From: a virus
Length of the DNA: 64,000 nucleotides
IMG/VR virus record: IMGVR_UViG_3300025789_000024
Span: 1 to 64,000 of that record
Strand: one strand, 5' to 3'
Shown in pieces: positions 5,094 to 20,630 of this stretch. The notes beneath the pieces are model-generated. The model did no database searches. It saw nothing but the letters and a program-made list of their open reading frames with translations, and had not been told where the DNA came from. Position numbers and translations under genes: made by a program. Each line of letters starts with the position of its first letter. Position 1 is the first letter of the stretch.

Positions 5094-5133
5094 TGCTAAA
5101 TTTCCTTAACTTATTCTTTATTTATCATTTCTG

Positions 5134-5772
5134 TTAACCCACCACCCAATTAATTCCGTTAGATAGTACCGGAACTGCATTGGTTCCGCCACTGCCAACG
5201 ACAGATAAAAATGTTGTTGTATTAGCATCTGTGATATATGCTCTGGCGCCTGCGCCAACGGCAGCTGCCGTTGGTAAACCTGAATAGGTTGTGGGTGTTG
5301 TTTTTACTACATGAGTAACCAGCATATTTTGAGTAGTAACAAATGTTAAATTTGCATTACCCGTAATATTACCCTGATTATTAAAAATGATTTGTGTGTT
5401 TGATGTGCCTTTAATTCCGTCAACTTCTACCAGTACACCTTCAATATCTAGCACACCATCAACTGTGATAGGTACACTAAATAAACCTTGATAGTTAGCC
5501 TGAATAGTTAAGTCTGTGCCTACAGGAACATAAGTAGGCATTGGCGCCGGAGATTGTGTACTGGCAGGGGAAACGAATGCAAGATTACCTGACCCGTCTG
5601 TTCTCAAGAAGTATCCGTTAGAACCGCCAGTAATAGTAACATTTGCTACATTACCTAAGTTGGATAGGCCTGTTATATCTATGTTTGTAGTAGATATATT
5701 GCCCGTCGGTGCGTCTAGGGTTATATCCCCAGCCGTAAGGCCGTTTTTTACGTTAAAATACTTCGTTGTCAC
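5134..5772 (-). CDS. Small virion fibre/adaptor protein (212 aa)
   Basis: GTG start; N-terminal FNVKNGL motif; GGSNGYFLRTDGSGNL motif; APMP...YQGLF domain shared with 11037..12506. Confidence 0.75.
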   Translation of the reverse strand: MTTKYFNVKNGLTAGDITLDAPTGNISTTNIDITGLSNLGNVANVTITGGSNGYFLRTDGSGNLAFVSPASTQSPAPMPTYVPVGTDLTIQANYQGLFSVPITVDGVLDIEGVLVEVDGIKGTSNTQIIFNNQGNITGNANLTFVTTQNMLVTHVVKTTPTTYSGLPTAAAVGAGARAYITDANTTTFLSVVGSGGTNAVPVLSNGINWVVG

Positions 5773-5825
5773 AGTTCCATTTTCCCTGCTAAACTTAATT
5801 AATTTTTAATTACTTAAATCATAAA

Positions 5826-8800
5826 TCAAGTTTTTATATAAGTTGCTACCACATTTACATTTGCTGTTGTTACTACAGAAGAATTTGCTGTAGCATACAA
5901 CGTGACATTACCAGTAACACCGCTGATGTTAGCAGTAATATCGACTATATCGGCTGTATCGTTAGTACAGATTGATCCATATATTGTTATATATGCACTT
6001 GAAGCACCGTCCTGAACTAATAATGTTTCAACTGATTGATATCCATTAGCACTTGAAGCACTAATTACATATTTTGCTGTTCTAAATGCTGATGGTGAGA
6101 ATTGATCAATCATTGTGGGTGTTGTTGATACAGACACATTACTACGATTAGAAATTGCGCCACCTGCAAACGCAACATAGTCAGTATTAACATTACCTGT
6201 TAGTGTGATGTTACCATCATTAGTTACTGAAACATTGCTTGAACTATTACCAACAAACAAGTTGCCTGTTAAGTTTGCATTACCATTAGCGATTGCTACG
6301 TTGCTTGAACTATTACCAACAAATACATTCGTACTAATGTTCGCAAAGTTAGAGATTAATAAATTACCAACGTTTGCATTACCTGATACAATATTACCTG
6401 TACCTGTAATTGTTCCTGTACCAAATCCTAAGTTACCAACATTAGCATTGCCTGTGACATTAGCAGTATTTGCTACTAAGTTACCAGTTACATTTGCATT
6501 ACCTGCATTTAATTGAACTGTAACATTAGCATTACCTGCCGTTAACAATGTTGTTACATTTGCGTTGGCAGCTGTTAAATTAGCAGTTACGTTTGCATTA
6601 CCTGCTGTCAAGGTACCAATTATATTTGCGTTATCACTAGTGATATTACCTGTTCCAGCGTTAGCAACTATTAATGAACCATTAACATTTGCACCAGCAG
6701 TAGTTACGTTTACTATGTTAGAAGCACCGTTAACGCTTATAACAACCGGACCGTTCGTTGAAGGAATACTTACATTTGAACTACCATTGCTGATACTTGA
6801 TTGACTGATTGTAGACCATGAGAGTGAACCTGAACCATCAGTTTGCAAGTATTGTCCGCTCTGACCGCCTAAGATATGTACGTTACTGATATTACCTAAA
6901 TCTACGTTACTACTAGTACTGAAGTCAACTGGGCCAATTGCTACTGCTAAGTTAGCTAATGTACCTAAACTAGTAATATTGCTTTGTGCATTTTGTGTTA
7001 CATAACCAGCTAAGTTTGCATTTGCAACATTACCTGTTACATTAGCACCAGTAATACCACTGATAGCCGCACCGTTACCAATCAAGTATGTTGAGCCACT
7101 ACCAATATTACCAGCAGTAATATTACCAGTAGAACTAGTGATATCACCAGTAACACTTAAACTTGTTAATGTACCGACACTTGTGATATTGCTTTGTGAG
7201 TTTTGTGTAACATAACCGGCTAAATTTGCATTTGCTACATTACCTGATACGTTAGCACCAGCGATGTTGCTGATACTAATACCATTACCGTATAACTGAG
7301 TAGTTGTTTGACCAATATAGTTTGCAAGAACATAACCAGTATCACTAGTAATATTACCAGTAACTTCTAAGTTTCCTAATGTACCTACACTTGTTAGACT
7401 CGAAGTAACAATACTTGATGCAAGTGTGTTACCTGTTAAGTTAGCCGCATTAGCAGTAATATATGTGTTACTTGCATTTGTTAATTGACCTTGGTCATTA
7501 ACTGTAAATGTTGCTACTACATCACCGCCACCATATGAACCTGCTGACACACTTGTGTTTGCAATACTAATAACTGTACCATTGATGCTAATACCTGTAC
7601 CAGCAGTATATTCACCAGCCGCTGAGAACTGAGTGAATGTAATTGGTGTTGTACCAAGAGTTACAGGAGGTTGTGTAGTACATACCCAACCAGTATTTGC
7701 ATTTGTAGTACCAGCAATAATGAATGTAAATGCACCTGGGATTTCACCACTTGGGCTTTGTGAGTCAAAGTCATTGGTACGTGTTAAAATGTATGGTGAA
7801 CCTGCACTACCTGTAGCAGTAACAGAATAGATACCGTTATATGGTTGATTTCCACCTGTTTCATTTTTAACTAGAATACGTTCACCAACACTTAGTGTTC
7901 CGCCATCAACTGTTAGTACACCATTTACATTACCTGTTAATGTTGCACCAACACCACTTGCACCGTTGTTATAAGTGTATGCTGGGAGTGCCGCGGCTGT
8001 TGCATATTCGCAAGATGCTTTAGGCAATAGACCTTGTGCAGTAACATCTACATAGTTCTTTGTTGCCGCATCTTGTGGATTGTACGGATCTTTAAGATTT
8101 GTAATGTATGTGTTAGCAACATCAACATTACCTGTACCATCTGGATGTAAATTAATATCACCGTTTGTTGTAGTTGTAACTGTGATTGGACCTGACACGC
8201 TTGAAACGGTGTTAGCAAGTACGTCTGAATTTGATTGAATATTACCTGATACTAGTAAACTTGTTAATGTACCAACACTTGTGATATTTGGTTGTGCATT
8301 TGATTGTACATTTAATGTACCACCTAATGTGTTAGCAACAATGTTACCTGCATTAGCATAGATATTACCAGCAGTAATGATAGTAATGTTAGCGTTTGCA
8401 GATGTCAAGAATGATGTAATATTAGCGTTGGCTGCTACTAGATTAGCAGTTACATTAGCATTACCAGTAACTAAATTATTCGTTACATTGGCATTACCGG
8501 TGTTCAATTGACTTGTAACATTAGCATTACCAGCATTTAATTGACTTGTAACATTAGCATTACCAGTTGTTAATAAAGTAGTTACGTTAGCATTACCGGC
8601 ATTTACATTGCTTGTTACATTAGCATTTCCACCAACAGTAAGATCCAATGTTACATTTGCGTTGCCTGTAGTCAATAATGTAGTTATGTTTGCATTACCT
8701 GCATTTATATTACTTGTTACATTAGCATTTCCACCAACAGCTAAGTCTGTAGTAACATTTGCATTACCAGTTGTTAATAATGTAGTTACATTTGCATTAC

Positions 8801-9398
8801 CTGCATTTACATTGCTTGTTACATTAGCATTTCCACCAATTATAATGTCTGTTGTTAGATTTGCATTATTTGCACTTACATTACCGGTTACGTTAGCATT
8901 ACCACCAACTATAATGTCTGTTGTTATGTTTGCGTTACCAGCAAACAAATTACCTTGTACATTTGCATCATTTGCAAAGTTTGCATAGTTAGCAGTTACT
9001 AAATTACCTAAGTTTGCTGTTCCGCTGGCCGGGGCTGTGAAATTACCTGTTGTGTCAAAAATCCATTGATAGTCTGAACCTGCGTTAGCATTAATGTAAA
9101 TATTACCACTAGCAACAGGGACACTTACATTACTGTTACCATTTTGAATTTCGGTAACACCGGGACTTGATGACCAAGTCAAGTTACCTGTACCGTCAGT
9201 ACTAAGTACAGCACCTGAACTGCCGCCACCGATATAGACATTACCAACGTTTCCTAAGTTAGCATACGTACTAACTTTTAGATTTGCTGTTTGTACTGAA
9301 CCTGAGTTAGCATATATTGTATTGCTGGCTGCATCAATGATTACGTTCCCGATTGTTGCGCCATTTTTAATTACGAAATTCTTTATTGATGTTGACAT
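5826..9398 (-). CDS. Virion fibre protein (1190 aa)
   Basis: FVIKNG N-terminus; GNANVT repeats; NPQDAATKNYVD and GERILVKNE..NGIY.V fibre domain; C-terminal FRTAKY beta-domain. Confidence 0.8.
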   Translation of the reverse strand: MSTSIKNFVIKNGATIGNVIIDAASNTIYANSGSVQTANLKVSTYANLGNVGNVYIGGGSSGAVLSTDGTGNLTWSSSPGVTEIQNGNSNVSVPVASGNIYINANAGSDYQWIFDTTGNFTAPASGTANLGNLVTANYANFANDANVQGNLFAGNANITTDIIVGGNANVTGNVSANNANLTTDIIIGGNANVTSNVNAGNANVTTLLTTGNANVTTDLAVGGNANVTSNINAGNANITTLLTTGNANVTLDLTVGGNANVTSNVNAGNANVTTLLTTGNANVTSQLNAGNANVTSQLNTGNANVTNNLVTGNANVTANLVAANANITSFLTSANANITIITAGNIYANAGNIVANTLGGTLNVQSNAQPNITSVGTLTSLLVSGNIQSNSDVLANTVSSVSGPITVTTTTNGDINLHPDGTGNVDVANTYITNLKDPYNPQDAATKNYVDVTAQGLLPKASCEYATAAALPAYTYNNGASGVGATLTGNVNGVLTVDGGTLSVGERILVKNETGGNQPYNGIYSVTATGSAGSPYILTRTNDFDSQSPSGEIPGAFTFIIAGTTNANTGWVCTTQPPVTLGTTPITFTQFSAAGEYTAGTGISINGTVISIANTSVSAGSYGGGDVVATFTVNDQGQLTNASNTYITANAANLTGNTLASSIVTSSLTSVGTLGNLEVTGNITSDTGYVLANYIGQTTTQLYGNGISISNIAGANVSGNVANANLAGYVTQNSQSNITSVGTLTSLSVTGDITSSTGNITAGNIGSGSTYLIGNGAAISGITGANVTGNVANANLAGYVTQNAQSNITSLGTLANLAVAIGPVDFSTSSNVDLGNISNVHILGGQSGQYLQTDGSGSLSWSTISQSSISNGSSNVSIPSTNGPVVISVNGASNIVNVTTAGANVNGSLIVANAGTGNITSDNANIIGTLTAGNANVTANLTAANANVTTLLTAGNANVTVQLNAGNANVTGNLVANTANVTGNANVGNLGFGTGTITGTGNIVSGNANVGNLLISNFANISTNVFVGNSSSNVAIANGNANLTGNLFVGNSSSNVSVTNDGNITLTGNVNTDYVAFAGGAISNRSNVSVSTTPTMIDQFSPSAFRTAKYVISASSANGYQSVETLLVQDGASSAYITIYGSICTNDTADIVDITANISGVTGNVTLYATANSSVVTTANVNVVATYIKT
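8390..8960 (-). repeat. Coding 12-13-aa GNANVT repeats
   Basis: GNANVTTLLTT, GNANVTSNVNA and GGNANVT units in the translation. Confidence 0.85.
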
Positions 9399-9420
9399 TT
9401 TTTATCCTAATTTATTAAAA

Positions 9421-11022
9421 TCAATCGGGTACATATGTCCCCAACAAGTTTAGACTAGTACCACTATTAAGTCCTGATGCTAACAATTGCACATTTCCAC
9501 CATTAATAGCAGAACTTAATACCACTAAATCTACCCCTGTAGTAGACAAACTACCATATACTGTTATAAGACTATTTATGCTATCATGAATCAAAAGTGC
9601 TTCAATCGACTGATAACCGGTGTTGTCTCCCACCTTAATTGTGTATTTTGCAGACCTATATTCAGCTAGAGGAAATTGGTCTACAATTGTATTTGTATTG
9701 ACATTTATACTGGTTCTTTGTGAGTATAAATTTGAAACTGCAATGTTTGTTGCAATAATTGTTTGTGTAGTACTAACATTTCCGTTAGAAACTAAGTTAC
9801 CCTGTATAGTAGTATTACTTGAACTTGATCCTAAAGTAACGTTAGAACTTAATCCAATATTAATATTAGCAACACCTGACACTAGTATACCTGCGCTATT
9901 ACTACCACTGTCTACAGAAATCGTGCTGTTTCCAATAGTCACGCATCCACTATTTGCTATCAAATAGTTTGAAGTTACTTGAGTGTTAGTTACTGAAGTA
10001 GTTCCAACTGTTACATTTCCATCAGATACTGTGGTACTACCTACACTTACATTGCTACTAGATACTACAGTATTTCCTACAGTTACATTGCTACTAGATA
10101 CTACAGTATTTCCAACAGATATATTACTACTTGAAACTACAGTATTTCCAATTTTTACATTACTACTTGAAACTACAGTATTTCCAATTGTTACATTGCT
10201 ACTTGAAACAACCGTGTTACCAACTGTAACATTACTACTAGATACCACTGTGTTACCAACAGATATATTGCTACTTGAAACTACTGTATTACCAATTGTA
10301 ACATTGCTACTAGATACTATGGTGTTACCAACAGTAACATTGCTATTTGATATTGAAGTAGTACCTACTGTAATATTACTACTTCCCAATGAGGTGTTAC
10401 CTACACTAACAGTGTTACTTGTAATTGTTGAATTACCAACAGTAACATTGCCGTCACCCACAGTAGTGTTACCAATTGTTACATTACTTGCGCCAACAAC
10501 AGTATTACCAACTGTTACATTACTGTTAGAAATAGTAGTACTACCTACACTTACTGAATTGCTTGAGATAGTTGATGTGCCTACTGTGACATTGCCATTG
10601 GATACAGTAGTAGTTCCGATAGTCACATTGTTATTGCCAACTACAGTATTTCCAACTGTGACATTGCTATTAGATATTGTAGTAGTGCCAACTGTAATAT
10701 TACTGTTACCTACTACTGTATTACCTACTGTAACATTGCTGTTAGAAATTGTTGTATTGCCAACTTTTACATTACTATTTGAGATAGTAGTATTACCAAC
10801 TGTAACATTACTATTTGAAACCGTGGTTGTCCCCACAGTAATAGTATTTGAAGTGATGGTTGAGTTACCGGCAGTTACATTACCAGTTTGAGTAACTACA
10901 TTGCTTACGTTAGAAAGTGTTTGCGCAACTTTAGTCCATGATCTAAGTACGGAGTTATACTTATACGTGTAGGTACCATCGTTGTATGTTTGTCCGTTTG
11001 TTGGGTTTACTGGGAATGCCAT
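9421..11022 (-). CDS. Virion fibre protein with 12-aa repeat shaft (533 aa)
   Basis: N-terminal FPVNPTNGQTY module, about 25 SSNVTVGNTVVS repeats, C-terminal YRSAKY domain. Confidence 0.8.
   Translation of the reverse strand: MAFPVNPTNGQTYNDGTYTYKYNSVLRSWTKVAQTLSNVSNVVTQTGNVTAGNSTITSNTITVGTTTVSNSNVTVGNTTISNSNVKVGNTTISNSNVTVGNTVVGNSNITVGTTTISNSNVTVGNTVVGNNNVTIGTTTVSNGNVTVGTSTISSNSVSVGSTTISNSNVTVGNTVVGASNVTIGNTTVGDGNVTVGNSTITSNTVSVGNTSLGSSNITVGTTSISNSNVTVGNTIVSSSNVTIGNTVVSSSNISVGNTVVSSSNVTVGNTVVSSSNVTIGNTVVSSSNVKIGNTVVSSSNISVGNTVVSSSNVTVGNTVVSSSNVSVGSTTVSDGNVTVGTTSVTNTQVTSNYLIANSGCVTIGNSTISVDSGSNSAGILVSGVANINIGLSSNVTLGSSSSNTTIQGNLVSNGNVSTTQTIIATNIAVSNLYSQRTSINVNTNTIVDQFPLAEYRSAKYTIKVGDNTGYQSIEALLIHDSINSLITVYGSLSTTGVDLVVLSSAINGGNVQLLASGLNSGTSLNLLGTYVPD
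9985..10890 (-). repeat. 36-nt/12-aa tandem repeat (SNVTVGNTVVSS)
   Basis: Directly visible periodicity in both DNA and protein. Confidence 0.95.
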
Positions 11023-11036
11023 GTCTTATTTACCCT

Positions 11037-12506
11037 TTAAAAGCTAGGTGGTAAGAAATCGTAGAAATAACTACTTGATCCGTCAGTTACCCACATGTAT
11101 AATCTTTGAAAATTATTAGGATTGTCTATATAGAAGAAAATGTCGCCGTAATTTAATGTTGCAAAATCAGGGGGAGTGGGACCATAATAGAACGTTGATG
11201 CCCAAACTGTGTTCGTACCGTTACTGGTTAGTACCTGGCCCTGTGTGCCTGTACTGCCTGTACTATCACTAATAAGTGAATTTGCTGATAAGTTTATGTT
11301 TCCTGTAACATTGGCGTTACCATTGACAATGAAATCATTGTTTGCTGTTAGATAGTTCGCTGTTACGTTACCGTTTGCATTTAAATTAACTGCTACATTT
11401 ACATAGTTGGCAGTTACTAAATTACCTAAATTTGCTGTGCCGTTTGCAGGTGCGGTTAAATTACCTGTGGTATCAAAATTCCATTGTTGACTGCCGTTAG
11501 TGTTGATATAGACATTACCACTAACATCAGGTAAACTTACGTTACTTGAGCCATGCTGAATTTCTGTTATGTTTGACGGGCTTGATGACCAAGTTAAATT
11601 TCCATAACCGTCTGTTGTTAGAATTTGACCATTACTACCACCACTGATATAAACATTGCTGATTGGGCCCAATGATACTTGATTAGCACTACCGAAGTTT
11701 ACATTACCTCTAGCCACTAAACCAGTACTAGAAATTGTTACAATATTAGCAGTTCCACTAGCACTAAAATTAATATTACCATTACCGGTAATAGCCATAT
11801 TAGTATTGCCATTTTGTACAGTAGTTACCTCTGCATTACCTGCTACTACTAGACTTGCTCCGGTGCCGCTTGTTAAAACAAGATTACTACCGCTATCGGT
11901 TTCAATAGTACTATTACCAATGTAGATAGTATTTCCAGATAGGTATAAATTACCCCAACGGTGAACATTTGAACCTAAATCAGAAATATTATTGGAAAAA
12001 GGAACTACATTTCCTGTAATTCTTATATTTGCAGGAAAATTTACATCAGCAGTTTCAGTATTGACTACAAAACCGTTTATACCTGTTGGTACGCCGTCGT
12101 TTTCGTATAAAATTTCCCCGTAAGTAGCATTTATAACTCCGCCACCACTTACGTCAATTAAGATACCGTCAACTTCAAGTTGACCGTCAATTTCAATTGG
12201 TTGTGCAAAAAGACCTTGATAATCAAAGGGTACAACAGTTGCTTGACCGTTGGGAATAAAGTACGGCATTGGTGCCGCACTATTTGAACTTACTGAAGAA
12301 AAACTTAAATTGCCATTTCCGTCAGTTTGTATATATTGACCTGCAGTTCCGCCGCCAATAAAAATATTACTGACATTACCTAAATTAGCATAGGTGTCTA
12401 CGGTTAAAACATTAGCAGTAACATTCGCATTAACGTCAACAACGTTAATAATCGAGTTAACACCAACGCTAAACCCGTAGCCGGAATTTAAGGGCTTTAG
12501 TGCCAT
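11037..12506 (-). CDS. Virion fibre/adaptor protein (489 aa)
   Basis: LKPLNSGYGFSVG N-terminus; DLGS...RWGNLYLSGNTIYIG motif; C-terminal GPTPP...GDIFF...LYMWVTDG module. Confidence 0.8.
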   Translation of the reverse strand: MALKPLNSGYGFSVGVNSIINVVDVNANVTANVLTVDTYANLGNVSNIFIGGGTAGQYIQTDGNGNLSFSSVSSNSAAPMPYFIPNGQATVVPFDYQGLFAQPIEIDGQLEVDGILIDVSGGGVINATYGEILYENDGVPTGINGFVVNTETADVNFPANIRITGNVVPFSNNISDLGSNVHRWGNLYLSGNTIYIGNSTIETDSGSNLVLTSGTGASLVVAGNAEVTTVQNGNTNMAITGNGNINFSASGTANIVTISSTGLVARGNVNFGSANQVSLGPISNVYISGGSNGQILTTDGYGNLTWSSSPSNITEIQHGSSNVSLPDVSGNVYINTNGSQQWNFDTTGNLTAPANGTANLGNLVTANYVNVAVNLNANGNVTANYLTANNDFIVNGNANVTGNINLSANSLISDSTGSTGTQGQVLTSNGTNTVWASTFYYGPTPPDFATLNYGDIFFYIDNPNNFQRLYMWVTDGSSSYFYDFLPPSF

Positions 12507-12508
12507 TA

Positions 12509-15500
12509 TTAAATCGTCCTAAATTGTGTGGTCCATACTGTTGAGTTTGTACTTGCAGGAGATACCTGTAATGCAATGTTGCTACCGACAATATTAACCG
12601 CTAATCCACCTGTAGTTGCTCCGATAAATGTTGTTCCATAAATTACGAAATCTGCATTTGCTGATCCGTCTGACACAGCCATAACTGTAGCCGCACTATA
12701 TTTGTTTAATGTGCCGTTTTCATCAACACCTTTAACAAAGAATTCTACACCTGTAATGCCTGCTACTGGTATTTGTGCAACTGTTTGATTAGCCGCAATA
12801 CTTGCTGTTGTTACTGTTGCCCAATATATTGCTGTGTTACCTAATACAATCGCATTAGCTACATTTGCATCATATGTGTTAACTACGTTACTAACTGTAA
12901 TGTTACCATCATTTGTGATTGCAACATTGCTTGAATTATTGCCAACAAAAATGTTACCTGTTAAGTTTGCATTACCGTTACTAATATTTACATTACTTGA
13001 ACTGTTGCCTACAAATAATGTGCTAGTAATGTTTGCATTTCCATTGATATTTGCATCGTAATTAGCAGTAATATAATTTGCAGTTAAATTACCTGTGATG
13101 TTTGCAGGGCCACCGTTGTTGATGTCTATGCTATTACCATAGAATGCATTAGCAGTAATATTGCCTGTTAACGCATTGACATTACCTGAAGCACTTACAT
13201 CTACAACATTTGCTGTGTTAGCAGTTATAACATTTACACCGCTGATGTTGCCGCCACTACCTGTACCAACTTGAACATTACCTGTGATATTTGCATTGCC
13301 ACCGACAATTAAATCAGTTCCAACATTTGCATAACCTGTTGAAATAAAGTTATTTACGTTAGCATATGTGTTAACTGTTAAACTGTTAGTAACTGTTGCT
13401 GTGTTAGAATTAACATTTCCAGCTAATAAATTACCAGTTAGTGTTAAACTTGTACCAGTTGCGTCACCAATATTTGGTGTTGTCAACTGTGCATTTGCCG
13501 CAACTGTGATGTTACCACCAACAATTGCAGTAGTTGTTCCGTCTACGTTAGCAGTAATTAATGTTCCAGTAACATTGATGCCGTTTGCACCTGTATAAGC
13601 ACCACCTTGACTGAATTGTACAAATGCAATGTTTGTAATACCGATATCAATTTCACCAGTTGTTGTTACGATCCAGCTTGAACCACCGTATACATCACCT
13701 TCAGTTACAAAGAAGTATGAACCTGCTGCCAAACCATTTGCACTTTGTGGGATATAACTATTACCATCAGCACTTCTTGTTAATACCCAAGGAGTTGAAC
13801 CATCACCAACTGTTGTTACATCGTAAACACCATTGTATGCTTGATTTGTTTGACCAGTTACAAGAACACGTAAGCCTGTAGTAGTTGTTACACTATCAAC
13901 AATTAATGCGGCAAGTGTACCTGCATTTGTCAATGTTGCACCTGTACCTGCTTGACCTAATGCAGGCTGTGACAATCCTGATCCAGCAGTTAATGTTTCT
14001 ACTGGGGCGGGACCATAATATTCATCCTTCAATGTGATTTGATTAGATGCGGGTACTGAAGCTACATAGTAGATATCAGGATCGCCACTAATACCATTGA
14101 ATGAATTAGTAAATGAAATTGTATTACCTACGCTTAATCCGTGCGCGCCACTAAACTGAACAACACTATTACCAATAATGTCAGTAACAGTTAGACTTGT
14201 ACCACCATTGTTATAACTTGCATTCAAATTACCTGATGACAACACATTTGCCGCTGGGTGAACATATAAACCTTGACTGATGTTATCAACATATTGCTTT
14301 GTAGCCGCATCTTGTGGATTAACTGGATCAGCAAGACTTGTAATGTATGTGCTGTGAACATCAACGTTACCTGCACCACCTGGTACTAAGTTAATATTAT
14401 ATGTGCCATTAGATACCAAATCACTTGCAATTTGTAAATATGTACCAGTACTTGTGATAGTGTTGCCAACAAATGTGCTTGTTGTTGTGATATTAGCGTT
14501 AGCATATAATGTACCAATTACATTAGCACCTGTTGCTGTTACTGTTAATACGTTAGCATTACCACCAACTGACAAGTTGATATTGCCGTTAACTACTGGA
14601 ATAGCAACATTACTTGTACCGTTTGCCAATTTACCTAATAAATTACCAACTGTTAAGTTACCTGTAATATTTGCATTTGTTTGTACATACAAATTACCCG
14701 CAATGTTAGCATCAGCATTTGCATAGAAGTAATTTGATAATATGTTACCTTGAACGTTTACATTACCGTTAGCATTTAAGTCATTACCTAAATTTGCATA
14801 GTTAGCAAACAAATAATCAACACCGCTGATGTTACCACCTGTGCCGCCTCCAGTAGTAATATTACCACCAACTTCAAGATTGCCTTGAATATTTGCATCA
14901 TTTGCAAAGTTTGCGTAGTTTGCAGTTACTAAGTTACCTAAATTAGCTGTGCCGATTGCAGGGAATGTTGTATTACCTGTAGTATCAAAGATCCATTGAT
15001 AGTCTGTACCTGCATTAGCATTAATGATTACATTACCATCAGCGACAGGAATACTTACATTACTGTTACCATTTGCAACTTGTGAACCTGATGCCCAACT
15101 TAAGTTACCTGTACCATCTGTAGTAAGAACTTGATTTAATGCGCCACCGTAAATGTGAACATTAGCAACATTACCTAATACCACATTTGGATTATTTGTG
15201 TTGAAGTCAATAGTTTGACCTGAACCAACACTAAATGTACCGTCTGATCCAAATTGATATTCCCAATATTGTGCATTAGTGTATAATAATATATCACCAT
15301 TGTCATTTAATATAACTTGACTGTAGTTTGCACCGCTTGTTTGAATACTGATATTGTTTGCCGCAGGTGTTGTGATTGTTGCATAACCACTGTTAGCGTT
15401 AGGTAAAATTAAATTACCATTATCTTCGAATATCCAGTTATATGCACCTTCTTGACTGTACAACTTAACATTACTATTAGTGCCATTGTCATTTAATTGG

Positions 15501-16711
15501 ATACCTGAATAGACACCAGAATTGGTATAGATGTTAATTGCTGTGTTTGGTTGGCCAGTTATGCTAGAACCATTTGGCAATGTTAATTGACCGTTTTGAT
15601 CAAATGTCCAGTTTTGTGATTCAGCATTTGTAGCAATTGTTACATTACCACCAGGGCCGTCAGTTAAGTAAATTTCACTATAACTTGAAACATTAGAAGT
15701 ATAAAAATCAAGATTTGTAAGTGAAGTAATTACGCCATAAACTGGTAGTGTAAGATATCCATTTGTATCAAATACCCATTGTTGATCACTGCCACTATTA
15801 GCATTAATGTAAACGTTACCGTCTTGAGATGGGATAGTTACATTACTATTACCATTTTTAATTTCGTTGATGTTTGGCGCTTCAGTCCATGATAAGTTAC
15901 CGGTACCGTCAGTTTGAAGAACATAGCCGTCACTGCCACCTAAAATGTGAACATTACCGATATTACCTAATTGTACATTTGCATTATTAGTACTAAAGTC
16001 AACAAGACCACCGTTACTTGTAAAACTATTAGCAAAGATAACGTTTGCGCCACTGATGTTACCTGCACTGCCTGTTGTAGAGAAATTATTTGCTGTTACA
16101 TTGCCAGTTACATTAGCATTGCCAGTGATTGTTACATCATTGGCAAAATTTGCATAATTAGCAGTTACTAAATTACCAAGATTTGCTGTACCGACTGCAG
16201 GGAATGTAGTGTTACCAGAATTATCAAGATTCCATTCATACTCACTACCTTCATAATCAGTATAGAAGTAGATGTTGTTTGTATCAATGTCAATATAACT
16301 ATTGCCAGAAGCGTCCGTTAGATTTAGACTACCGCTATTTGGTATGATGTAGCTACTGCCAGGTACTGTTAAATTACCTGTTATGTCAAATACCCATTGA
16401 GAATCGGTTGCTGCATTAGCATTGATATAAATATTACCACTAGCAACAGGAATGCTTACATTACTATTACCATTTTGAATTTCAGTAACACCGGGGCTTG
16501 ATGACCAGTTTAAGTTACCTAATCCGTCAGTACTAAGTACTGCACCTGAGTTACCTCCACCAATGTAGATATTACCCACATCGCCTAGATTTGCGTAATT
16601 ACTTACAACTAGATTGGCTGTGGTAACATCGGTATTTGGGTAGATTACTGTTGTAATCGTACTGTTACCTACGCTAAAACCGCCTACTGAATTTAATGGT
16701 TTAAGAGACAT
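12509..16711 (-). CDS. Virion fibre protein (1400 aa)
   Basis: LKPLNSVGGFSVG N-terminus; repeated W.FD..GNLT.P modules; DAATKQYVD domain; C-terminal GVEFFVKG beta-domain. Confidence 0.8.
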   Translation of the reverse strand: MSLKPLNSVGGFSVGNSTITTVIYPNTDVTTANLVVSNYANLGDVGNIYIGGGNSGAVLSTDGLGNLNWSSSPGVTEIQNGNSNVSIPVASGNIYINANAATDSQWVFDITGNLTVPGSSYIIPNSGSLNLTDASGNSYIDIDTNNIYFYTDYEGSEYEWNLDNSGNTTFPAVGTANLGNLVTANYANFANDVTITGNANVTGNVTANNFSTTGSAGNISGANVIFANSFTSNGGLVDFSTNNANVQLGNIGNVHILGGSDGYVLQTDGTGNLSWTEAPNINEIKNGNSNVTIPSQDGNVYINANSGSDQQWVFDTNGYLTLPVYGVITSLTNLDFYTSNVSSYSEIYLTDGPGGNVTIATNAESQNWTFDQNGQLTLPNGSSITGQPNTAINIYTNSGVYSGIQLNDNGTNSNVKLYSQEGAYNWIFEDNGNLILPNANSGYATITTPAANNISIQTSGANYSQVILNDNGDILLYTNAQYWEYQFGSDGTFSVGSGQTIDFNTNNPNVVLGNVANVHIYGGALNQVLTTDGTGNLSWASGSQVANGNSNVSIPVADGNVIINANAGTDYQWIFDTTGNTTFPAIGTANLGNLVTANYANFANDANIQGNLEVGGNITTGGGTGGNISGVDYLFANYANLGNDLNANGNVNVQGNILSNYFYANADANIAGNLYVQTNANITGNLTVGNLLGKLANGTSNVAIPVVNGNINLSVGGNANVLTVTATGANVIGTLYANANITTTSTFVGNTITSTGTYLQIASDLVSNGTYNINLVPGGAGNVDVHSTYITSLADPVNPQDAATKQYVDNISQGLYVHPAANVLSSGNLNASYNNGGTSLTVTDIIGNSVVQFSGAHGLSVGNTISFTNSFNGISGDPDIYYVASVPASNQITLKDEYYGPAPVETLTAGSGLSQPALGQAGTGATLTNAGTLAALIVDSVTTTTGLRVLVTGQTNQAYNGVYDVTTVGDGSTPWVLTRSADGNSYIPQSANGLAAGSYFFVTEGDVYGGSSWIVTTTGEIDIGITNIAFVQFSQGGAYTGANGINVTGTLITANVDGTTTAIVGGNITVAANAQLTTPNIGDATGTSLTLTGNLLAGNVNSNTATVTNSLTVNTYANVNNFISTGYANVGTDLIVGGNANITGNVQVGTGSGGNISGVNVITANTANVVDVSASGNVNALTGNITANAFYGNSIDINNGGPANITGNLTANYITANYDANINGNANITSTLFVGNSSSNVNISNGNANLTGNIFVGNNSSNVAITNDGNITVSNVVNTYDANVANAIVLGNTAIYWATVTTASIAANQTVAQIPVAGITGVEFFVKGVDENGTLNKYSAATVMAVSDGSANADFVIYGTTFIGATTGGLAVNIVGSNIALQVSPASTNSTVWTTQFRTI

Positions 16712-16777
16712 TTGCTGATTCCTTATTATCTTATATTTATCATTTTCTCAAAAATGGGCATACACTCATTCTTATTT

Positions 16778-19471
16778 TTATGTTGCATACTGCGTGATTT
16801 GCATCTTATACGTCACGGTATTCATTGTTTCCGGTGTTACGTATAACACGATGTACCCTGCATTGTACGATATAGAATAGTCCCCAACTGGGCCACCTAC
16901 ATATAATTGACTGTATTCATTATAGTTAACATTGCCACTATAATATACCGCTGTAGACTTTGTGATTTGTCTATAACCAGCTGTAGCATCAGTAGCAACA
17001 ATAGTAAATTCTAATCCTGAAATATTTGCGGCACTGATTGCTAACAATTGTTGCAATCCTGCACCTGATGTTGTGGCAGCAAACGTGTTTGCAGTCCAAA
17101 ACTGATTTAATCCTGTACCCAGTGTTAGTGAGTTTGCAACCATACTACCTACTAAGTTTACAACACCTGTTACATGATTGTATGTAAAATTAGTATTTCC
17201 ACTGAATGTGCCGTTTTGATTGAACTGAATTTGATTGTTTGCGCCACCTGGGCTACCTGTACTTGGAACCCATTGTAAATCACCTGATCCATCAGTAGAT
17301 AAGATATATCCTGCGCTACCACCACCAATACTTACATTTCCTGCATCACCCAATGCAAGTACACTACCATCCCAAGTTACAGTAGGTATACCACCAAAGT
17401 CACCTTCTAAATTAAACTGTAACTGAGTGTTGTTACCACCGGGTAATCCATTACCACCTGCAGGGGCCGCCCAAACTAAGTTCCCTGCTCCGTTTGTTTT
17501 TAATACATAACCATTGCTACCACCTGCAATGTTGATATTACCAACATTACCTAAATTAGTTTTACCAGTAACTGTTAAATTACCTGTTCTAGTGTTACCT
17601 GTAACATTAGCATTGTTAACAATCGTTATTGATCCTGAAACAGTTGCATTGGGTGCTGTTAATACACCAGTTGAACTATTAAATGTAAATCCAGTAGTAC
17701 CTGCAAAGTTGCCATTGTCATTGTATTGAACTTCTGTGTTAATACCGCCGGGGTTTCCACCACCGCCACCTTCAGCCCAAGATAATGCACCTGCACCATC
17801 TGTAGTCAATACATAACCACTAGTTCCGCCACCAATACTGATTTGAGATACATCACCCAGTGTTAATAAACTACCATCCCATGTAGTAGTTGGTATGCCT
17901 GCAAAACTTCCACTGTTATTAAACTGTAATTGTTGATTTGAACCGCCGGGCGTTCCTGATGCTTGTAACCAACTTAGATTACCTGTACCATCAGTAGATA
18001 ACACATAACCTGTTGTACCACCAGTAATTGTTAAGTTACTAATGCTTCCTAAATTAGCAGGTCCTTGTATGTTTAGATTAGTTAGTGTACCTAAACTAGT
18101 AATGTTAGGTTGAATATTAGTTGTTAATCTACCGCCTAAATTGACTGCATTAACATTGTCTGATGCATTTAATGTAATTACATTAGCAGTTGTTGCCTTT
18201 AATGTTCCTGTAACATTTGCGCTTGATGCAGTTACATTATATGTTGCAACTACATTTGGTACAGTCATTACACCTGAGGTGTTTGTAAATGTAAATCCGG
18301 CTGCGCCACCAAATGTACCTGCATTGTTGAATTGAATTTCTGTGTTACTACCACCGGGTGTTCCATTACCACCGCCGCCACCTGTTTGTGCAGTCCAACT
18401 TAGATTACCTGTACCGTCAGTTTGTAACACATAACCATTAACACCACCGCTGATTACAACATCAGATATACCTGCATTTAATGAGTTAACAGGACCATAA
18501 ACGTTACTACCTGCAACACTATTAGCAATAGCCGCAAACGCTACTTGTCCTGTGACGTTTCCACCGGCTACTCCATTTGCGATAGTTGCATACTCTACTG
18601 CACCGTGAACATTTGCACCAGCAACATAATTAGCAATAGCCGCATAATTAACTTGTCCGAATACATTACCACCTGCAACACTGTTTGCCACGTTGGCATA
18701 ATTAACTGCGCCGAACACATTGCTACCTGACACGCTGTTTGCAACACTTGCATATTGTACAGCACCTGTTACATTGGCACCGGCTACTGAGTTTGCTGTA
18801 GCCGCATAATTGACTTGTCCAAATACATTACTACCTGCTACTCCATTTGCAATAGTAGCATAAGCAACTGCTCCAGTAACATTACTACCTGCTACACTAT
18901 TAGCAATGGTTGCATACTCTACTGCACCTGTAATGTCACTGCCTGGAATACTTGCATTAAGTGTACCTGTAACTGATAGATTAGGTACTGTTACAACACC
19001 TGTTGCACTATTGAAAGTAAAACTAGGCAAGCCACCAAACTGACCAGCATTATTAAATTGAATGTATGTGTTGCTACCACCGGGGTTAGTGTTACCCCCA
19101 CCATTACCTGATCCAGGTGCCCATTGTAGATTACCTGTACCATCAGTTTGTAGATAATAGCCAAAAGCTCCGCCACCTAATTTAACATTAGCAACACTAC
19201 CCAATGACAAGTTTGCGCCATCCCATGTAGTGATTGGTATTCCACCAAATGATCCATTGTTATTAAATTGTAGTTGAGTAGTGCTACCGCCGGCTGCCCC
19301 TGCAAAAGGAGTACCGTTAGCCCAATAAAATTGATTTGCATATACATTAGAAGCAGTAACATTTCCTGATGTAAAAACATTAGTAACAATATTACCATTG
19401 CCATCAGTAATAGCGATAGGTGGTATACCAACTGAGTAACCTGCTAATGAATTAAAGAGTTCTGCTGCCAT
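16778..19471 (-). CDS. Virion fibre protein (897 aa)
   Basis: Multiple PGGSNTQ.QFN..G.FGG and GYVL.TDG.GNLSW modules, 18-aa repeats, C-terminal GLEFTIVA domain. Confidence 0.8.
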   Translation of the reverse strand: MAAELFNSLAGYSVGIPPIAITDGNGNIVTNVFTSGNVTASNVYANQFYWANGTPFAGAAGGSTTQLQFNNNGSFGGIPITTWDGANLSLGSVANVKLGGGAFGYYLQTDGTGNLQWAPGSGNGGGNTNPGGSNTYIQFNNAGQFGGLPSFTFNSATGVVTVPNLSVTGTLNASIPGSDITGAVEYATIANSVAGSNVTGAVAYATIANGVAGSNVFGQVNYAATANSVAGANVTGAVQYASVANSVSGSNVFGAVNYANVANSVAGGNVFGQVNYAAIANYVAGANVHGAVEYATIANGVAGGNVTGQVAFAAIANSVAGSNVYGPVNSLNAGISDVVISGGVNGYVLQTDGTGNLSWTAQTGGGGGNGTPGGSNTEIQFNNAGTFGGAAGFTFTNTSGVMTVPNVVATYNVTASSANVTGTLKATTANVITLNASDNVNAVNLGGRLTTNIQPNITSLGTLTNLNIQGPANLGSISNLTITGGTTGYVLSTDGTGNLSWLQASGTPGGSNQQLQFNNSGSFAGIPTTTWDGSLLTLGDVSQISIGGGTSGYVLTTDGAGALSWAEGGGGGNPGGINTEVQYNDNGNFAGTTGFTFNSSTGVLTAPNATVSGSITIVNNANVTGNTRTGNLTVTGKTNLGNVGNINIAGGSNGYVLKTNGAGNLVWAAPAGGNGLPGGNNTQLQFNLEGDFGGIPTVTWDGSVLALGDAGNVSIGGGSAGYILSTDGSGDLQWVPSTGSPGGANNQIQFNQNGTFSGNTNFTYNHVTGVVNLVGSMVANSLTLGTGLNQFWTANTFAATTSGAGLQQLLAISAANISGLEFTIVATDATAGYRQITKSTAVYYSGNVNYNEYSQLYVGGPVGDYSISYNAGYIVLYVTPETMNTVTYKMQITQYAT
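18497..18929 (-). repeat. Eight 18-aa (54 nt) repeats G[AQ]V.YA..ANSVAG.NV.
   Basis: Counted in the translation. Confidence 0.9.
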
Positions 19472-19496: not shown

Positions 19497-19563
19497 TATT
19501 TATCTATTGCCCTTTTTATATACCGTGGTTTGAAGAACCTAGGAGTGCTTTATTTTATAAATA
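19497..19563. promoter_or_regulatory. Divergent T4-type late promoters (ATAAATA on - at 19497-19503; TATAAATA on + at 19556-19563)
   Basis: Match to the T4 gp55 promoter consensus TATAAATA. Further (A)TAAATA copies precede genes at 5119, 16734, 20635, 24525, 24835, 26656, 46820 and 47317. Confidence 0.75.
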
Positions 19564-19567
19564 CAAT

Positions 19568-19939
19568 ATGATTACTACTCAACCACCAAGACCTATATGC
19601 ATTAATTGCAAATTTTCATTAGCAAAGTCTAATGGAAAAAGTAAACATGGATTTCAAAAGTGGCATCGATATTGTGTTGAGTGTGCTAAATCGATATACA
19701 ATCCTAGATTTAAACACTTACAATATAAAAAGTTACATTGTGAGCAATGTAGCTTTGAAGCAGAAGACAAATGTCAATTAGATTTGATATTTGTAGATGG
19801 GAATAAAAAGAATAAAACTAAAAAGAATATGTTAACACTATGTGCAAACTGTAGTAGATTGTACAAAAAGCGCCAACGTACAGGTAAAAAATCAATTTTA
19901 AATAATGTTACTGTTGATGCTGATATTAGGATTGCTTGA
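19568..19939 (+). CDS. Zinc-finger/HNH-fold protein, probably catalytically degenerate
   Basis: Four CxxC pairs; QLDLIFVDGNKKN...NMLTLCANC matches the HNH scaffold (usually LDVDHIDG...NL..LC.NCH) but lacks the His residues. Confidence 0.65.
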   Translation: MITTQPPRPICINCKFSLAKSNGKSKHGFQKWHRYCVECAKSIYNPRFKHLQYKKLHCEQCSFEAEDKCQLDLIFVDGNKKNKTKKNMLTLCANCSRLYKKRQRTGKKSILNNVTVDADIRIA

Positions 19940-20630
19940 TTTTTAGTAATCTTAAAAATTCAAATATTTTTATATACATAAACCCAATATCAAATTCAAA
20001 CTTTTCACGACTAAGTTTACAACTTGCAGGATTTAAGTGATGATTATTGTGTAACTCTTCACCACCTACAACAATGCCCCAAGGAGTTATGTTATGACTA
20101 TGATCTTTAGTCTCACCGTTACGATATCCCCACCAATGGCCTATCCCATTGATAACTCCGGCTGCCCAAAAGGGTATCCAAATCATTTGCACACCCCATA
20201 TTAATAATCCTATTGTTCCAAACAATGTTAGATTGATCCAAAGCATTATTAGTATGCCTAAAAAATTATATCTAGTATAAATTTTTTCTATAAAATCATC
20301 AGGTGTGCCTACACCATACTGATTTACCATGTCTTTGTCTTTTACTGCACTACTATATAACAATGCGCCCCTAGAGAATACACGCCATATTCCATAGACA
20401 TGTGGGCTATGTGGATCACCTTCTTTGTCACTAAATCTATGATGCTTTCTATGAGTTGCTACCCACTGTTTAGTTACCATACCTGTTGTAAGCCATAACC
20501 AAAATCGCATAAAGTGACTTAATACAGGATGAAATTCTAGTGACTTGTGAGCCTGTCCTCTGTGCAAGAACAACGTCACACATACTATAGTGATGTGTGT
20601 AACTATTAAAGTGTATATGATATATGTCAT
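19926..20630 (-). CDS. Membrane fatty acid desaturase, delta-9/DesA-like (auxiliary metabolic gene)
   Basis: Three His boxes (HRGQAH, HRKHH, HNNHH), DPHSP motif, hydrophobic segments. Confidence 0.92.
   Translation of the reverse strand: MTYIIYTLIVTHITIVCVTLFLHRGQAHKSLEFHPVLSHFMRFWLWLTTGMVTKQWVATHRKHHRFSDKEGDPHSPHVYGIWRVFSRGALLYSSAVKDKDMVNQYGVGTPDDFIEKIYTRYNFLGILIMLWINLTLFGTIGLLIWGVQMIWIPFWAAGVINGIGHWWGYRNGETKDHSHNITPWGIVVGGEELHNNHHLNPASCKLSREKFEFDIGFMYIKIFEFLRLLKIKQS

What the first reader, a model, noticed from the sequence alone, without database searches (positions are those of the whole stretch)
5134..19471. Consecutive fibre genes carry matching C-terminal and N-terminal docking modules: a possible gene-order-encoded head-to-tail fibre chain
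Seen in sequence, in transcription order: the 897-aa and 1400-aa proteins both end in a ~100-aa G[LV]EF-type domain, and each is followed by a gene starting LKPLNSxxGFSVG. The 489-aa protein ends in a GPTPP..GDIFF module and is followed by a gene starting FPVNPTNGQTY. The 533-aa and 1190-aa proteins both end in an R[ST]AKY-type domain, and each is followed by a gene starting F[VN][IV]KNG. So five consecutive junctions pair a C-terminal domain type with a specific N-terminal peptide type, and subtype matching holds in both repeated pairs. Inference: each N-terminal peptide plugs into the C-terminal domain of the preceding gene product, building a long multi-protein fibre whose order mirrors gene order, analogous to PKS/NRPS docking domains or pilus donor-strand complementation. 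The APMP..YQGLF domain shared by the 489-aa and 212-aa proteins could be a branch point. Location directly after the capsid gene suggests head fibres.
Basis: partly seen in the sequence, partly recalled or inferred. Interest (0 to 1): 0.8.

Follow-up and report, generated by a model that had tools for sequence, protein, structure and literature searches.

The report
Plug-and-socket joints chaining phage fibres
In this uncultured giant T4-like phage, consecutive fibre proteins end in a copy of the domain that phage T4 uses as its tail-fibre socket and the next gene always starts with a matching plug peptide, so the proteins very probably click together end to end in gene order, an extended version of how T4 builds its long tail fibre.

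Summary
Four of the seven co-directional fibre genes (897, 1400, 533 and 1190 aa) end in one family of ~105-aa beta-sandwich with two subtypes, A and B. Each is followed by a gene whose first ~15 residues are a plug peptide of the matching subtype, a or b.

- **Fold:** the C-domain model (pLDDT 90.5) matches the C-terminal domain of T4 gp9 (Z 13.1, rmsd 1.8 A over 101 residues). The T4 long tail fibre attaches coaxially to that domain.
- **Census:** in about 50 related viral contigs, 119 of 119 junctions obey A->a and B->b. Small cap proteins with one body carry an a or a b plug according to the socket upstream.
- **Complex model:** three 1190-aa sockets plus three 212-aa plugs scores ipSAE 0.93, against 0.00 for the best control.

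The docking idea is therefore supported in silico for the four socket junctions. The 489|533 junction is weaker. The 1697-aa gene has its own promoter-like motif and may be a separate fibre.

Nothing supports "head fibres". A gp9 homologue in a complete relative points to the baseplate instead. Binding has not been measured.

The scan has reached the same reading on at least seven other genomes. I class it as a new variant of a known kind.

The parts
16778..19471 (-). Fibre gene 1, 897 aa. It has an a'-type plug (MAAELFNSLAGYSVG, at about 19424-19471) and an A'-type socket domain (last ~110 aa, at about 16781-17110).
12509..16711 (-). Fibre gene 2, 1400 aa. It has an a-type plug (MSLKPLNSVGGFSVG, at about 16664-16711) and an A-type socket domain (at about 12512-12841).
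11037..12506 (-). Fibre gene 3, 489 aa. It has an a-type plug (12459-12506), a head module with the APMP..QGLF..IDG domain (at about 12132-12278) and no socket. It ends in a P..PP..GDIFF..LYMW module (at about 11040-11189).
9421..11022 (-). Fibre gene 4, 533 aa. It has a p-type N-terminus (FPVNPTNGQTY..W, at about 10930-11022), an NVT/VGN repeat rod and a B1-type socket domain (at about 9424-9753).
5826..9398 (-). Fibre gene 5, 1190 aa. It has a b-type plug (IKNFVIKNG, at about 9351-9398) and a B2-type socket domain (5829-6158), which was modelled at pLDDT 90.5.
5134..5772 (-). Cap protein, 212 aa. It has a b-type plug (TTKYFNVKNG, 5725-5772) and a head module with the APMP..QGLF..ITVDG domain (at about 5419-5550). 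It has no socket. In the complex model its residues 2-10 sit on the socket of the 1190-aa protein.
3..5093 (-). Fibre gene 7, over 1697 aa, with its 3' end cut by the contig end. It has a q-type N-terminus (MSLILKQE..PTPPSGKG) and its own GATAAATA motif upstream. It may be a separate fibre or a branch.
19497..19504 (-). GATAAATA, resembling a T4 late promoter, 32 nt upstream of the 897-aa gene.
16734..16741 (-). GATAAATA, 29 nt upstream of the 1400-aa gene. The 1400, 489, 533, 1190 and 212-aa genes have no further copy, which suggests one transcription unit.
5119..5126 (-). GATAAATA, 32 nt upstream of the 1697-aa gene.

Best explanation
The cluster encodes segments of a long, trimeric, multi-protein virion fibre joined by plug-and-socket joints derived from the T4 gp9-gp34 joint.

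How the joint works (inferred):
- Each segment that is to be extended ends in a gp9-C-terminal-domain-like beta-sandwich, the socket.
- The next segment begins with a ~15-residue plug peptide. Its residues 2-10 lie between two protomers of the socket trimer, so that the two trimers sit coaxially.
- Two specificities exist: A/A' sockets take a plugs and B sockets take b plugs.
- Proteins with an a (or p) plug and a B socket switch the code.
- Socket-less proteins such as the 212-aa cap end the chain.

Proposed order in this window: (gp9-like connector, not on this contig) -> 897 -> 1400 -> 489, and 533 -> 1190 -> 212. The two halves may be joined through the P|p pair of 489 and 533. The 1697-aa fibre is either separate or attached to a cap domain.

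What is shown: the modules, their fold, their strict adjacency and subtype matching across mosaic genomes, and a confident complex model.

What is inferred: physical binding, coaxial geometry, attachment to the baseplate, and continuity across 489|533 and 212|1697.
For: 1. **Fold.** The AF2 model of the last 130 aa of the 1190-aa protein has pLDDT 90.5. Its best solved match is T4 gp9 residues 176-284 (Z 13.1, rmsd 1.8 A, 101 aligned), with Foldseek E 2.3e-4. [quoted passage not shown]
2. **Homology.** A complete 352-kb relative encodes a 272-aa gp9 homologue (PF07880, 34 bits against a cut-off of 25). Its C-domain matches the fibre-socket profile (hhalign probability 90.8%, E 1.2e-6). gp9/gp10-like proteins also appear among the profile hits.
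3. **Grammar.**
   - 119 junctions in about 50 loci give A->a 66, B->b 53 and no mismatch.
   - 19 junction clusters remain at 50% identity, 13 A->a and 6 B->b.
   - No socket gene lacks a plug gene downstream.
   - Plug motifs occur 111 times at N-termini and never internally in 240,125 residues.
   - Sockets lie at the extreme C-terminus.
5. **Age.** The A' and A sockets are only ~20% identical, yet both are followed by a plugs. The pairing is therefore old and maintained.
6. **Complex model.**
   - ipSAE is 0.93 (runs 0.92-0.94) against 0.00 for the best of 3 controls.
   - That mark was reached by 58 of 80 solved complexes and 2 of 110 mismatched pairs.
   - The runs agree in at least 89% of contacts, and the partner pLDDT is at least 91.
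   - The interface is plug residues 2-10 with socket residues 63, 74-83, 90 and 94-97 of two protomers.
7. **Subtype-specific interface.** That socket strand is conserved within a subtype and differs between subtypes: B x-I-T-I-Y-G-S, A D-Y-x-x-Y-G-T, A' N-Y-N-E-Y-S-S.
8. **A more distant phage.** In L058 a B-like socket is again followed by a b plug.
Against: - No experiment exists. The phage is known only from metagenomes.
- The loci are related, so the 119 junctions are not independent. Junction cassettes (3' end plus 5' end) could be inherited as units if recombination is confined to the repetitive rods.
- The same fold ends fibres that have no known downstream partner: Acinetobacter phage tailspikes (Z 8-10) and RaK2 gp529, where it was read as a trimerisation domain.
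- In cyanophage S-SM2 a gene with this domain is followed by unrelated genes.
- The complex score may owe something to memory of the T4 joint. My own alignments were used, and copies of chains differ from the tool's calibration set.
- No cognate versus non-cognate comparison could be run.
- The plug's resemblance to the T4 gp34 N-terminus is not significant (z < 3).
- No fused socket-plug protein was found.
Confidence: 0.68

Rival explanations
1. The fibres are independent. The C-terminal beta-sandwich is only a trimerisation or folding nucleus, or a distal tip. The N-terminal peptides anchor every fibre separately on the virion. The C-type/N-type adjacency is inherited, because mosaic exchange happens inside the repetitive rods and carries the 3' end of one gene and the 5' end of the next as a single cassette.
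For: - The gp9-like C-domain of RaK2 gp529 was interpreted as a trimerisation domain (PMC10253068).
- The same fold ends Acinetobacter phage tailspikes.
- In S-SM2 the domain is not followed by a plug gene.
- The rods are highly repetitive and vary in length between relatives (518-2642 aa for a..B proteins), which favours recombination within genes.
Against: - It does not explain why b plugs occur only in genomes and positions with a B socket just upstream.
- It does not explain why a socket is never left without a plug gene (119 of 119).
- It does not explain why homologous caps carry the plug that matches the upstream socket.
- It does not explain why the subtype-specific socket strand is the one the model places against the plug.
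- A' and A sockets have diverged to ~20% identity while keeping a plugs downstream.
Confidence: 0.17
2. The joints are real, but the appendage is a neck or head fibre anchored at the portal/neck or capsid. It would resemble the bead-chain neck fibre of Anabaena phage A-1(L).
For: - The cluster follows the portal-protease-scaffold-capsid block on the same strand.
- The A-1(L) neck fibre gp82-(gp81)14-gp80 is a head-to-tail chain of trimers joined by N-terminal beta-hairpins (PMC10966104).
- The anchor for the a' plug of the 897-aa protein was not identified on this contig.
Against: - The socket is homologous to the C-domain of a gp9 homologue. That homologue carries the T4_gp9_10_N domain, which in T4 binds baseplate gp7.
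- Related jumbo phages also place tail-fibre genes after the capsid gene.
- T4 also encodes its long-tail-fibre genes away from its baseplate genes.
Confidence: 0.1
3. The structure is branched rather than linear. The APMP..QGLF..IDG domain in the 489-aa and 212-aa proteins, and in many relatives, would be a lateral socket for the q-type fibre, so that several 1697-aa fibres hang off one backbone.
For: All 14 q-type genes in the loci follow a protein that carries this domain. The q gene has its own promoter-like motif.
Against: Ten other carriers of the domain are followed by other gene types. The domain is simply part of the common N-terminal head module. No structural or docking test was possible: the monomer model of the 212-aa protein failed at pLDDT 54.7.
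Confidence: 0.05

Closest known systems
T4 gp9 (socket protein, or baseplate-fibre connector) C-terminal domain with the N-terminus of gp34
   Same: The fibre C-domain has the same eight-stranded beta-sandwich fold (Z 13.1, rmsd 1.8 A). It is related by profile to the C-domain of a gp9 homologue. Like gp9, it is proposed to receive the N-terminus of a trimeric fibre coaxially (PMC3004832).
   Different: - Here the domain sits at the C-terminus of fibre proteins themselves, not on a baseplate protein, so it can be used repeatedly.
- It comes in at least two subtypes with matching plug subtypes.
- The plug has no significant similarity to the gp34 N-terminus.
T4 long tail fibre gp34-gp35-gp36-gp37
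   Same: It is a multi-protein trimeric fibre whose segments join N-terminus to C-terminus in the order of the genes.
   Different: - T4 uses a monomeric knee cap (gp35) and unrelated joints. No Pfam hit and no significant N-terminal similarity to gp34-37 was found here.
- This cluster has 6-7 segments and reuses one joint type.
Anabaena myophage A-1(L) neck fibre gp82-(gp81)14-gp80 (PMC10966104)
   Same: It is an experimentally shown head-to-tail chain of trimers, encoded in one operon and joined by N-terminal elements that bind the preceding trimer's C-domain, with a distinct terminal protein.
   Different: It is a homopolymeric bead chain of one small protein anchored at the neck. The chain here is an ordered hetero-chain of long rods with two specificities, probably anchored on the baseplate.
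Branched fibres of CBA120 and RaK2/phiK64-1 (gp10-like XD domains; RaK2 gp529 gp9-like C-domain)
   Same: These phages reuse T4 baseplate-connector folds to hang fibre proteins on one another. RaK2 belongs to the same capsid lineage of jumbo phages, and its gp529 ends in a gp9-like domain.
   Different: There, docking is through N-terminal XD/D1 domains and produces branches, and the gp9-like C-domain was read as a trimerisation domain. No plug peptide or gene-order rule was described.
PKS/NRPS docking domains; chaperone-usher donor-strand complementation
   Same: This is an analogy only: short terminal elements of matched classes set the order of subunits.
   Different: The folds and chemistry are unrelated, and there is no homology.

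Membership tests
T4 gp9 C-terminal (fibre-socket) domain | Eight-stranded antiparallel beta-sandwich fold of gp9 residues ~167-288 | tested here: met
   The model (pLDDT 90.5) aligns with 1qex_A residues 176-284 at Z 13.1, rmsd 1.8 A over 101 residues. The next unrelated folds score Z about 5.
T4 gp9 C-terminal (fibre-socket) domain | Sequence-profile relation to a bona fide gp9-family protein | tested here: met
   The 272-aa protein of the 352-kb relative carries PF07880 (34 bits, cut-off 25). Its residues 133-228 match the fibre C-domain profile with hhalign probability 90.8%, E 1.2e-6. A direct profile search against PDB sequences found nothing.
T4 gp9 C-terminal (fibre-socket) domain | Forms a trimer that receives the N-terminus of a trimeric fibre coaxially | tested here: inconclusive
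   This rests on a model only. The 3+3 complex scores ipSAE 0.93 against 0.00 for the best control. The mark was reached by 58 of 80 solved and 2 of 110 mismatched pairs. Runs agree in at least 89% of contacts and partner pLDDT is at least 91. No measurement exists.
T4 gp9 C-terminal (fibre-socket) domain | N-terminal gp9/gp10 domain that binds baseplate gp7 | tested here: not met
   The fibre proteins have no PF07880 hit and no GD..KIN.NF motif. They share only the C-domain, so they are not gp9 orthologues.
T4 long tail fibre proteins gp34/gp35/gp36/gp37 | Sequence similarity to gp34-37, in particular of the N-terminal joints | tested here: not met
   There are no Pfam hits. Comparing the first 60 residues of the T4 proteins with those of each fibre protein gives z of 2.8 or less. 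The motif-level likeness (F.[AV].[DN]GL.AG) is not significant.
A-1(L)-type bead-chain neck fibre | Repeated small globular trimer (gp81-like) that polymerises head to tail and is anchored on the neck | not tested
   No sequence or structure comparison with gp80-82 was run. The architecture here differs: long rods, each present once.
CBA120/RaK2 branched tailspike complexes | N-terminal gp10-like XD or D1/D2 docking domains | tested here: inconclusive
   There are no Pfam or PHROG hits of that kind. [quoted passage not shown]
Intramolecular-chaperone (peptidase S74) C-terminal domains | C-terminal self-cleaving chaperone ending in ..VVVGRF with an S/AKYADLAE site | tested here: not met
   This is absent from the six complete fibre proteins of the window. 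It is present in q-type proteins of relatives and in L058. The C-terminus of the window's q-type gene is missing.

The most novel reading that the evidence does not exclude
A widespread family of aquatic jumbo phages has turned the T4 baseplate socket into a reusable connector with at least two orthogonal plug/socket specificities, plus code-switching and capping proteins. Gene order would then literally program the self-assembly of a hetero-polymeric fibre about 250 nm or more long (over 4700 residues per strand). Mosaic exchange of rods between conserved joints would give the phage a modular kit for changing fibre length and receptor modules.
Probability: 0.45. Interest if true: 0.72.

Novelty: new variant of a known kind. 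Interest (0 to 1): 0.6.

Why it matters
If the joints bind as modelled, the finding has three consequences.

- It explains how giant phages build very long, multi-segment fibres from many genes.
- It gives a sequence rule (socket subtype followed by plug subtype) that predicts assembly order directly from metagenomic sequence. The socket profile finds 3684 cluster representatives at E <= 1e-3, so thousands of unannotated 'hypothetical' fibre genes could be read this way.
- It offers orthogonal, short, trimeric connectors that could be used to assemble designed fibres or to swap receptor-binding segments in laboratory phages.

It also reinterprets gp9-like C-terminal domains, which have been noted in cultured jumbo phages such as RaK2 only as trimerisation domains.

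Tried and rejected
- **Pfam and PHROGs on the seven fibre proteins:** no informative family. The only hits are phrog_30390 on residues 486-627 of the 1190-aa protein and weak unknown-function hits.
- **Megablast of the cluster against cultured phages:** no match.
- **The search for related loci with the four-sequence alignment:** Single C-domains worked.
- **Apparent exceptions to the rule** (L017/L018 A->q, L008 B->q, and four regex misfits): all dissolved. Small 116-128-aa plug-bearing ORFs lie in the gaps, and the misfits are b or a plugs with variant residues.
- **Similarity of the plugs to the T4 gp34, gp36 and gp37 N-termini:** I thought I saw motif matches, but none is significant (z of 2.8 or less). 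I rejected this as evidence.
- **Rosetta-stone search for socket-plug fusions:** the multi-socket proteins among the top 150 hits are gp9/gp10-like and similar proteins with directly repeated sockets and no plugs. This says nothing either way.
- **Socket profile against PDB sequences:** no hit. Only the fold comparison sees gp9.
- **AF2 monomer model of the 212-aa cap:** pLDDT 54.7, unusable, so no fold search was made.
- **Protein atlas search for the cap:** only unnamed viral clusters.
- **The look-up of encoding contigs:** Contexts of diverse database proteins, such as b-plug/A-socket proteins like P0084, were reached through viral contigs instead.
- **Cognate versus non-cognate complex predictions, and tests of a' with the gp9 C-domain, P with p, and cap with q:** not possible, because the cap is one complex job.
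- **N-x-S/T sequon excess in the fibres:** mostly explained by composition.
Full report
**Context.** The window is the first 64 kb of a 115,390-bp IMG/VR viral contig, estimated about 32% complete. Its major capsid protein belongs to the T4 gp23 family (PF07068, E 1.3e-97). That protein is 63-66% identical to those of jumbo phages such as Pseudomonas PA5oct, Vibrio 2.275.O and the Rak2-like group. On the minus strand the order is portal-like, protease, scaffold, capsid, a fatty-acid desaturase-like gene, then seven fibre genes with gaps of 2-66 nt. The last of them runs off the contig start. None of the fibre proteins has a Pfam family, and the DNA has no close match among cultured phages.

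Local alignment against shuffles gives the following.
- C-terminal 110 residues: 897~1400 z 8.5; 533~1190 z 22.4.
- First 30 residues: 1400~489 z 12.1; 1190~212 z 7.1.

Three refinements are needed.
- All four C-domains are one family. 1400 against 533 or 1190 gives z 4-6, and a four-way alignment runs end to end. The 'G[LV]EF' and 'R[ST]AKY' motifs are the same strand in two subtypes, which I call A (with A' in the 897-aa protein) and B (B1 in 533, B2 in 1190).
- The two N-terminal peptides are also homologous variants of one plug: a, as in LKPLNSVGGFSVG, and b, as in TKNFVVKNGITTG. Intermediates such as KPFNAKGGITTG occur.
- The first gene (897) itself starts with a plug of the a class, although no socket gene precedes it.

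A profile of the C-domain finds only these four copies in the 115-kb contig, all at the extreme C-terminus. If the seven genes were ordered at random, the two A->a and two B->b junctions would all hold in 12 of 5040 orders.

**What the C-domain is.**
- An AF2 model of the last 130 residues of the 1190-aa protein, built with 43 homologues, is confident (pLDDT 90.5, pTM 0.81). It is an eight-stranded beta-sandwich.
- Its best solved match is the C-terminal domain of T4 gp9 (1qex residues 176-284; Z 13.1, rmsd 1.8 A, 101 residues). Next come a Klebsiella phage baseplate chain (Z 10.8) and the C-terminal domains of Acinetobacter phage tailspikes (Z 8-10).
- In T4, gp9 is the 'socket protein'. [quoted passage not shown]
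- The relation is more than fold. The complete 352-kb relative (CheckV 100%) encodes a 272-aa protein with the T4_gp9_10_N domain (34 bits, cut-off 25). Its C-terminal part matches the fibre C-domain profile (hhalign probability 90.8%, E 1.2e-6).
- The profile search of 1.84 billion representatives found 3684 proteins at E <= 1e-3 and 477 at E <= 1e-10. In almost all of them the domain is at the very C-terminus. The exceptions include a few gp9/gp10-like proteins with 5-8 tandem copies.

**The adjacency rule in related genomes.** I fetched about 50 loci from viral contigs using the A and B domains and a b-plug/A-socket protein as queries.
- Of 119 junctions where a socket gene is followed by a complete gene start, 66 are A->a and 53 are B->b, with none mixed. 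The seven initial 'misfits' were regex failures or small genes below my ORF cut-off.
- After clustering junction sequences at 50% identity, 19 clusters remain (13 A->a, 6 B->b), still without a mismatch.
- These loci are relatives, so the counts are not independent events. The architectures are nevertheless strongly mosaic. a plugs head proteins that end in A, B1, B2, a 'T', 'E' or P end, or no domain at all. Lengths run from 119 to 2642 aa, and all of these proteins sit behind an A or A' socket. b plugs head proteins of 116-2188 aa, all behind a B socket.
- No socket gene is left without a plug gene downstream.
- Plug motifs occur 111 times at N-termini and never internally in 240,125 residues.
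- The A' and A sockets are only ~20% identical yet both are followed by a plugs. The pairing is therefore old and maintained, not a recent tandem duplication.

**The most telling case is the caps.**
- In L017, L018 and L040 an A socket is followed by a 119-128-aa protein.
- In L008 a B2 socket is followed by a 116-aa protein.
- These mini-proteins, and the first ~115 residues of the window's 212-aa and 489-aa proteins, share one body: an LG..N..I.GG..G....TDG.GNL.F module followed by an APMPyyIP...QGLF..PItIDG.L..dGiL..V domain.
- They carry an a or a b plug according to the socket upstream.
- In a more distant phage (L058) a B-like socket is again followed by a b plug.

**Complex model.** I submitted three copies of the 1190-aa socket (130 aa, with alignment) and three copies of residues 1-75 of the 212-aa protein (with alignment).
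- The model supports binding. ipSAE is 0.93 (runs 0.92-0.94) against 0.00 for the best of three controls.
- This mark was reached by 58 of 80 solved complexes and 2 of 110 mismatched pairs in the tool's calibration.
- The runs agree in at least 89% of contacts, and the partner's pLDDT is at least 91.
- The tool warns that my own alignments and the use of copies differ from its calibration, and that a pass can reflect likeness to a solved complex.
- The interface is plug residues 2-10 against socket residues 63, 74-83, 90 and 94-97 of two neighbouring protomers. This is the part of the plug that distinguishes a from b.
- The socket strand 76-82 is conserved within each subtype and differs between them: B x-I-T-I-Y-G-S, A D-Y-x-x-Y-G-T, A' N-Y-N-E-Y-S-S.

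**Mechanism I commit to.** Each socket-bearing segment is a trimeric rod whose C-terminal gp9-like trimer receives the three N-terminal plugs of the next segment coaxially. Two specificities order the segments, a..B or p..B proteins switch the code, and socket-less caps end the chain. By analogy with T4, the a' plug of the first segment would sit on the gp9 homologue of the baseplate. That gene is not on this contig and the pairing is untested. I put about 0.68 on real plug-socket joints at the four A/B junctions. I put roughly 0.35 on all seven proteins forming one continuous fibre in gene order.

**Weaker parts.**
- *The 489|533 junction.* It pairs two instances of one motif class, P..P..G[DQ]..[YWF]......[LY].[WY]. 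I saw it in three loci: here, L022 and L058. In L058 the upstream motif lies just before an intramolecular-chaperone cleavage site. It may be a joint, but I could not test it.
- *The 1697-aa q-type gene.* All 14 q-type genes in the loci follow a protein with the cap domain. Ten other carriers of that domain are followed by other genes. The q gene also has its own GATAAATA motif.
- *Transcription units.* That motif lies 29-32 nt upstream of the 897, 1400 and 1697-aa genes only. These are three of the four ATAAATA copies on this strand in 24 kb. This suggests three late transcription units: 897; 1400-489-533-1190-212; and 1697.
- *The 'branch point'.* This idea therefore remains open but unsupported.

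**Head or tail.** PA5oct and Vibrio phage 2.275.O also carry tail-fibre genes downstream of the capsid gene. T4 itself encodes genes 34-37 away from its baseplate genes. The homology of the socket to a gp9-family protein points to the baseplate. A neck fibre like that of Anabaena phage A-1(L) is not excluded. That fibre is an experimentally shown head-to-tail chain, gp82-(gp81)14-gp80, joined by N-terminal beta-hairpins (PMC10966104).

**Evidence against, and rivals.**
- The same fold ends fibres that have no known partner: Acinetobacter phage tailspikes and RaK2 gp529, which was read as a trimerisation domain.
- In cyanophage S-SM2 a gene with this domain is followed by unrelated genes. The fold alone therefore does not prove a socket function.
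- Inheritance of junction cassettes through recombination within the repetitive rods could produce much of the adjacency.
- The likeness of the plugs to the T4 gp34, gp36 and gp37 N-termini that I thought I saw is not significant.
- No socket-plug fusion protein was found.
- The monomer model of the cap failed.
- Binding, specificity and location on the virion are all unmeasured.

**Relation to what is known.** The joint works like the T4 gp9-gp34 attachment, and the collinear chain works like T4 gp34-37. The proteins are not members of those families apart from the shared socket domain. I found no paper that describes gp9-like sockets reused at fibre C-termini with matched plug peptides. After I had reached the gp9 reading, the scan's own notes showed that follow-up agents came to the same plug-and-socket reading on at least seven other genomes. 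Those are unchecked AI notes, not independent evidence, but they indicate that the pattern is widespread. One of them led me to the A-1(L) paper. I class the finding as a new variant of a known kind.

Noticed in passing
window 50745-63998 (+), continuing to 70493 on the contig: A single open reading frame of 6582 aa lies in the tail/baseplate block, after ORFs of 903, 1296, 153 and 1133 aa. It is one of the largest phage ORFs I have seen and was not examined.
   Followed up: no
window 19926-20630 (-): A fatty-acid desaturase family gene (PF00487, E 2.8e-15) sits between the capsid gene and the fibre cluster. It is conserved at that place in several relatives (L012, L013, L015, L018).
   Followed up: partly
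L007:1534-1872, L012:10100-10423, L013:10108-10431: This is another junction type in relatives. A fibre ending ..[IF]LAL(EN/GSD) is followed by a 107-112-aa beta-rich protein, and then by a gene starting ..L[LI]SGR..P....RY.[FW]L.L. The small protein may be a free-standing adaptor.
   Followed up: partly
L019-L022, L033, L041 and the 352-kb relative: A further conserved pair occurs. A C-terminus ..AL(T/N)(S/A)G(Q/D).VT..S.. is followed, with a gap of 2 nt or a 16-nt overlap, by a gene starting ..Q..DLLYK..FGV.KTDT.
   Followed up: partly
window 5119-5126, 16734-16741, 19497-19504 (-): GATAAATA lies 29-32 nt upstream of three fibre genes. It resembles the T4 late promoter TATAAATA. These are three of only four ATAAATA copies on this strand in the first 24 kb.
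   Followed up: partly
window 859-1779 (+) and 9983-10891 (+): Long ORFs of 306 and 302 aa lie antisense to the repetitive fibre genes. They are rich in L, P, V and T and are most likely mirror artefacts of the N/G/T/V repeats, not genes.
   Followed up: no
window 3-19471 (-), fibre proteins: The fibres contain 12-16% Asn (10% in the 212-aa cap) and 2.4-5.8 N-x-S/T sequons per 100 residues, a modest excess over shuffles. The same contig carries a large glycan-building cluster noted by other readers, so fibre glycosylation is conceivable but untested.
   Followed up: partly
window 19568-19939 (+): A 123-aa ORF on the opposite strand fills the ~450-nt gap between the desaturase and the first fibre gene. 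A gap of the same size (451-455 nt) is conserved in relatives.
   Followed up: no
P0102 (database protein) compared with contig 71314-72543 (+): The 409-aa tail-block protein of this contig (MAYTIVKSNGTVLTTIADG...) has a database homologue of 407 aa that ends in a B2-type socket. Sockets may therefore also sit on baseplate-proximal proteins in some relatives.
   Followed up: no
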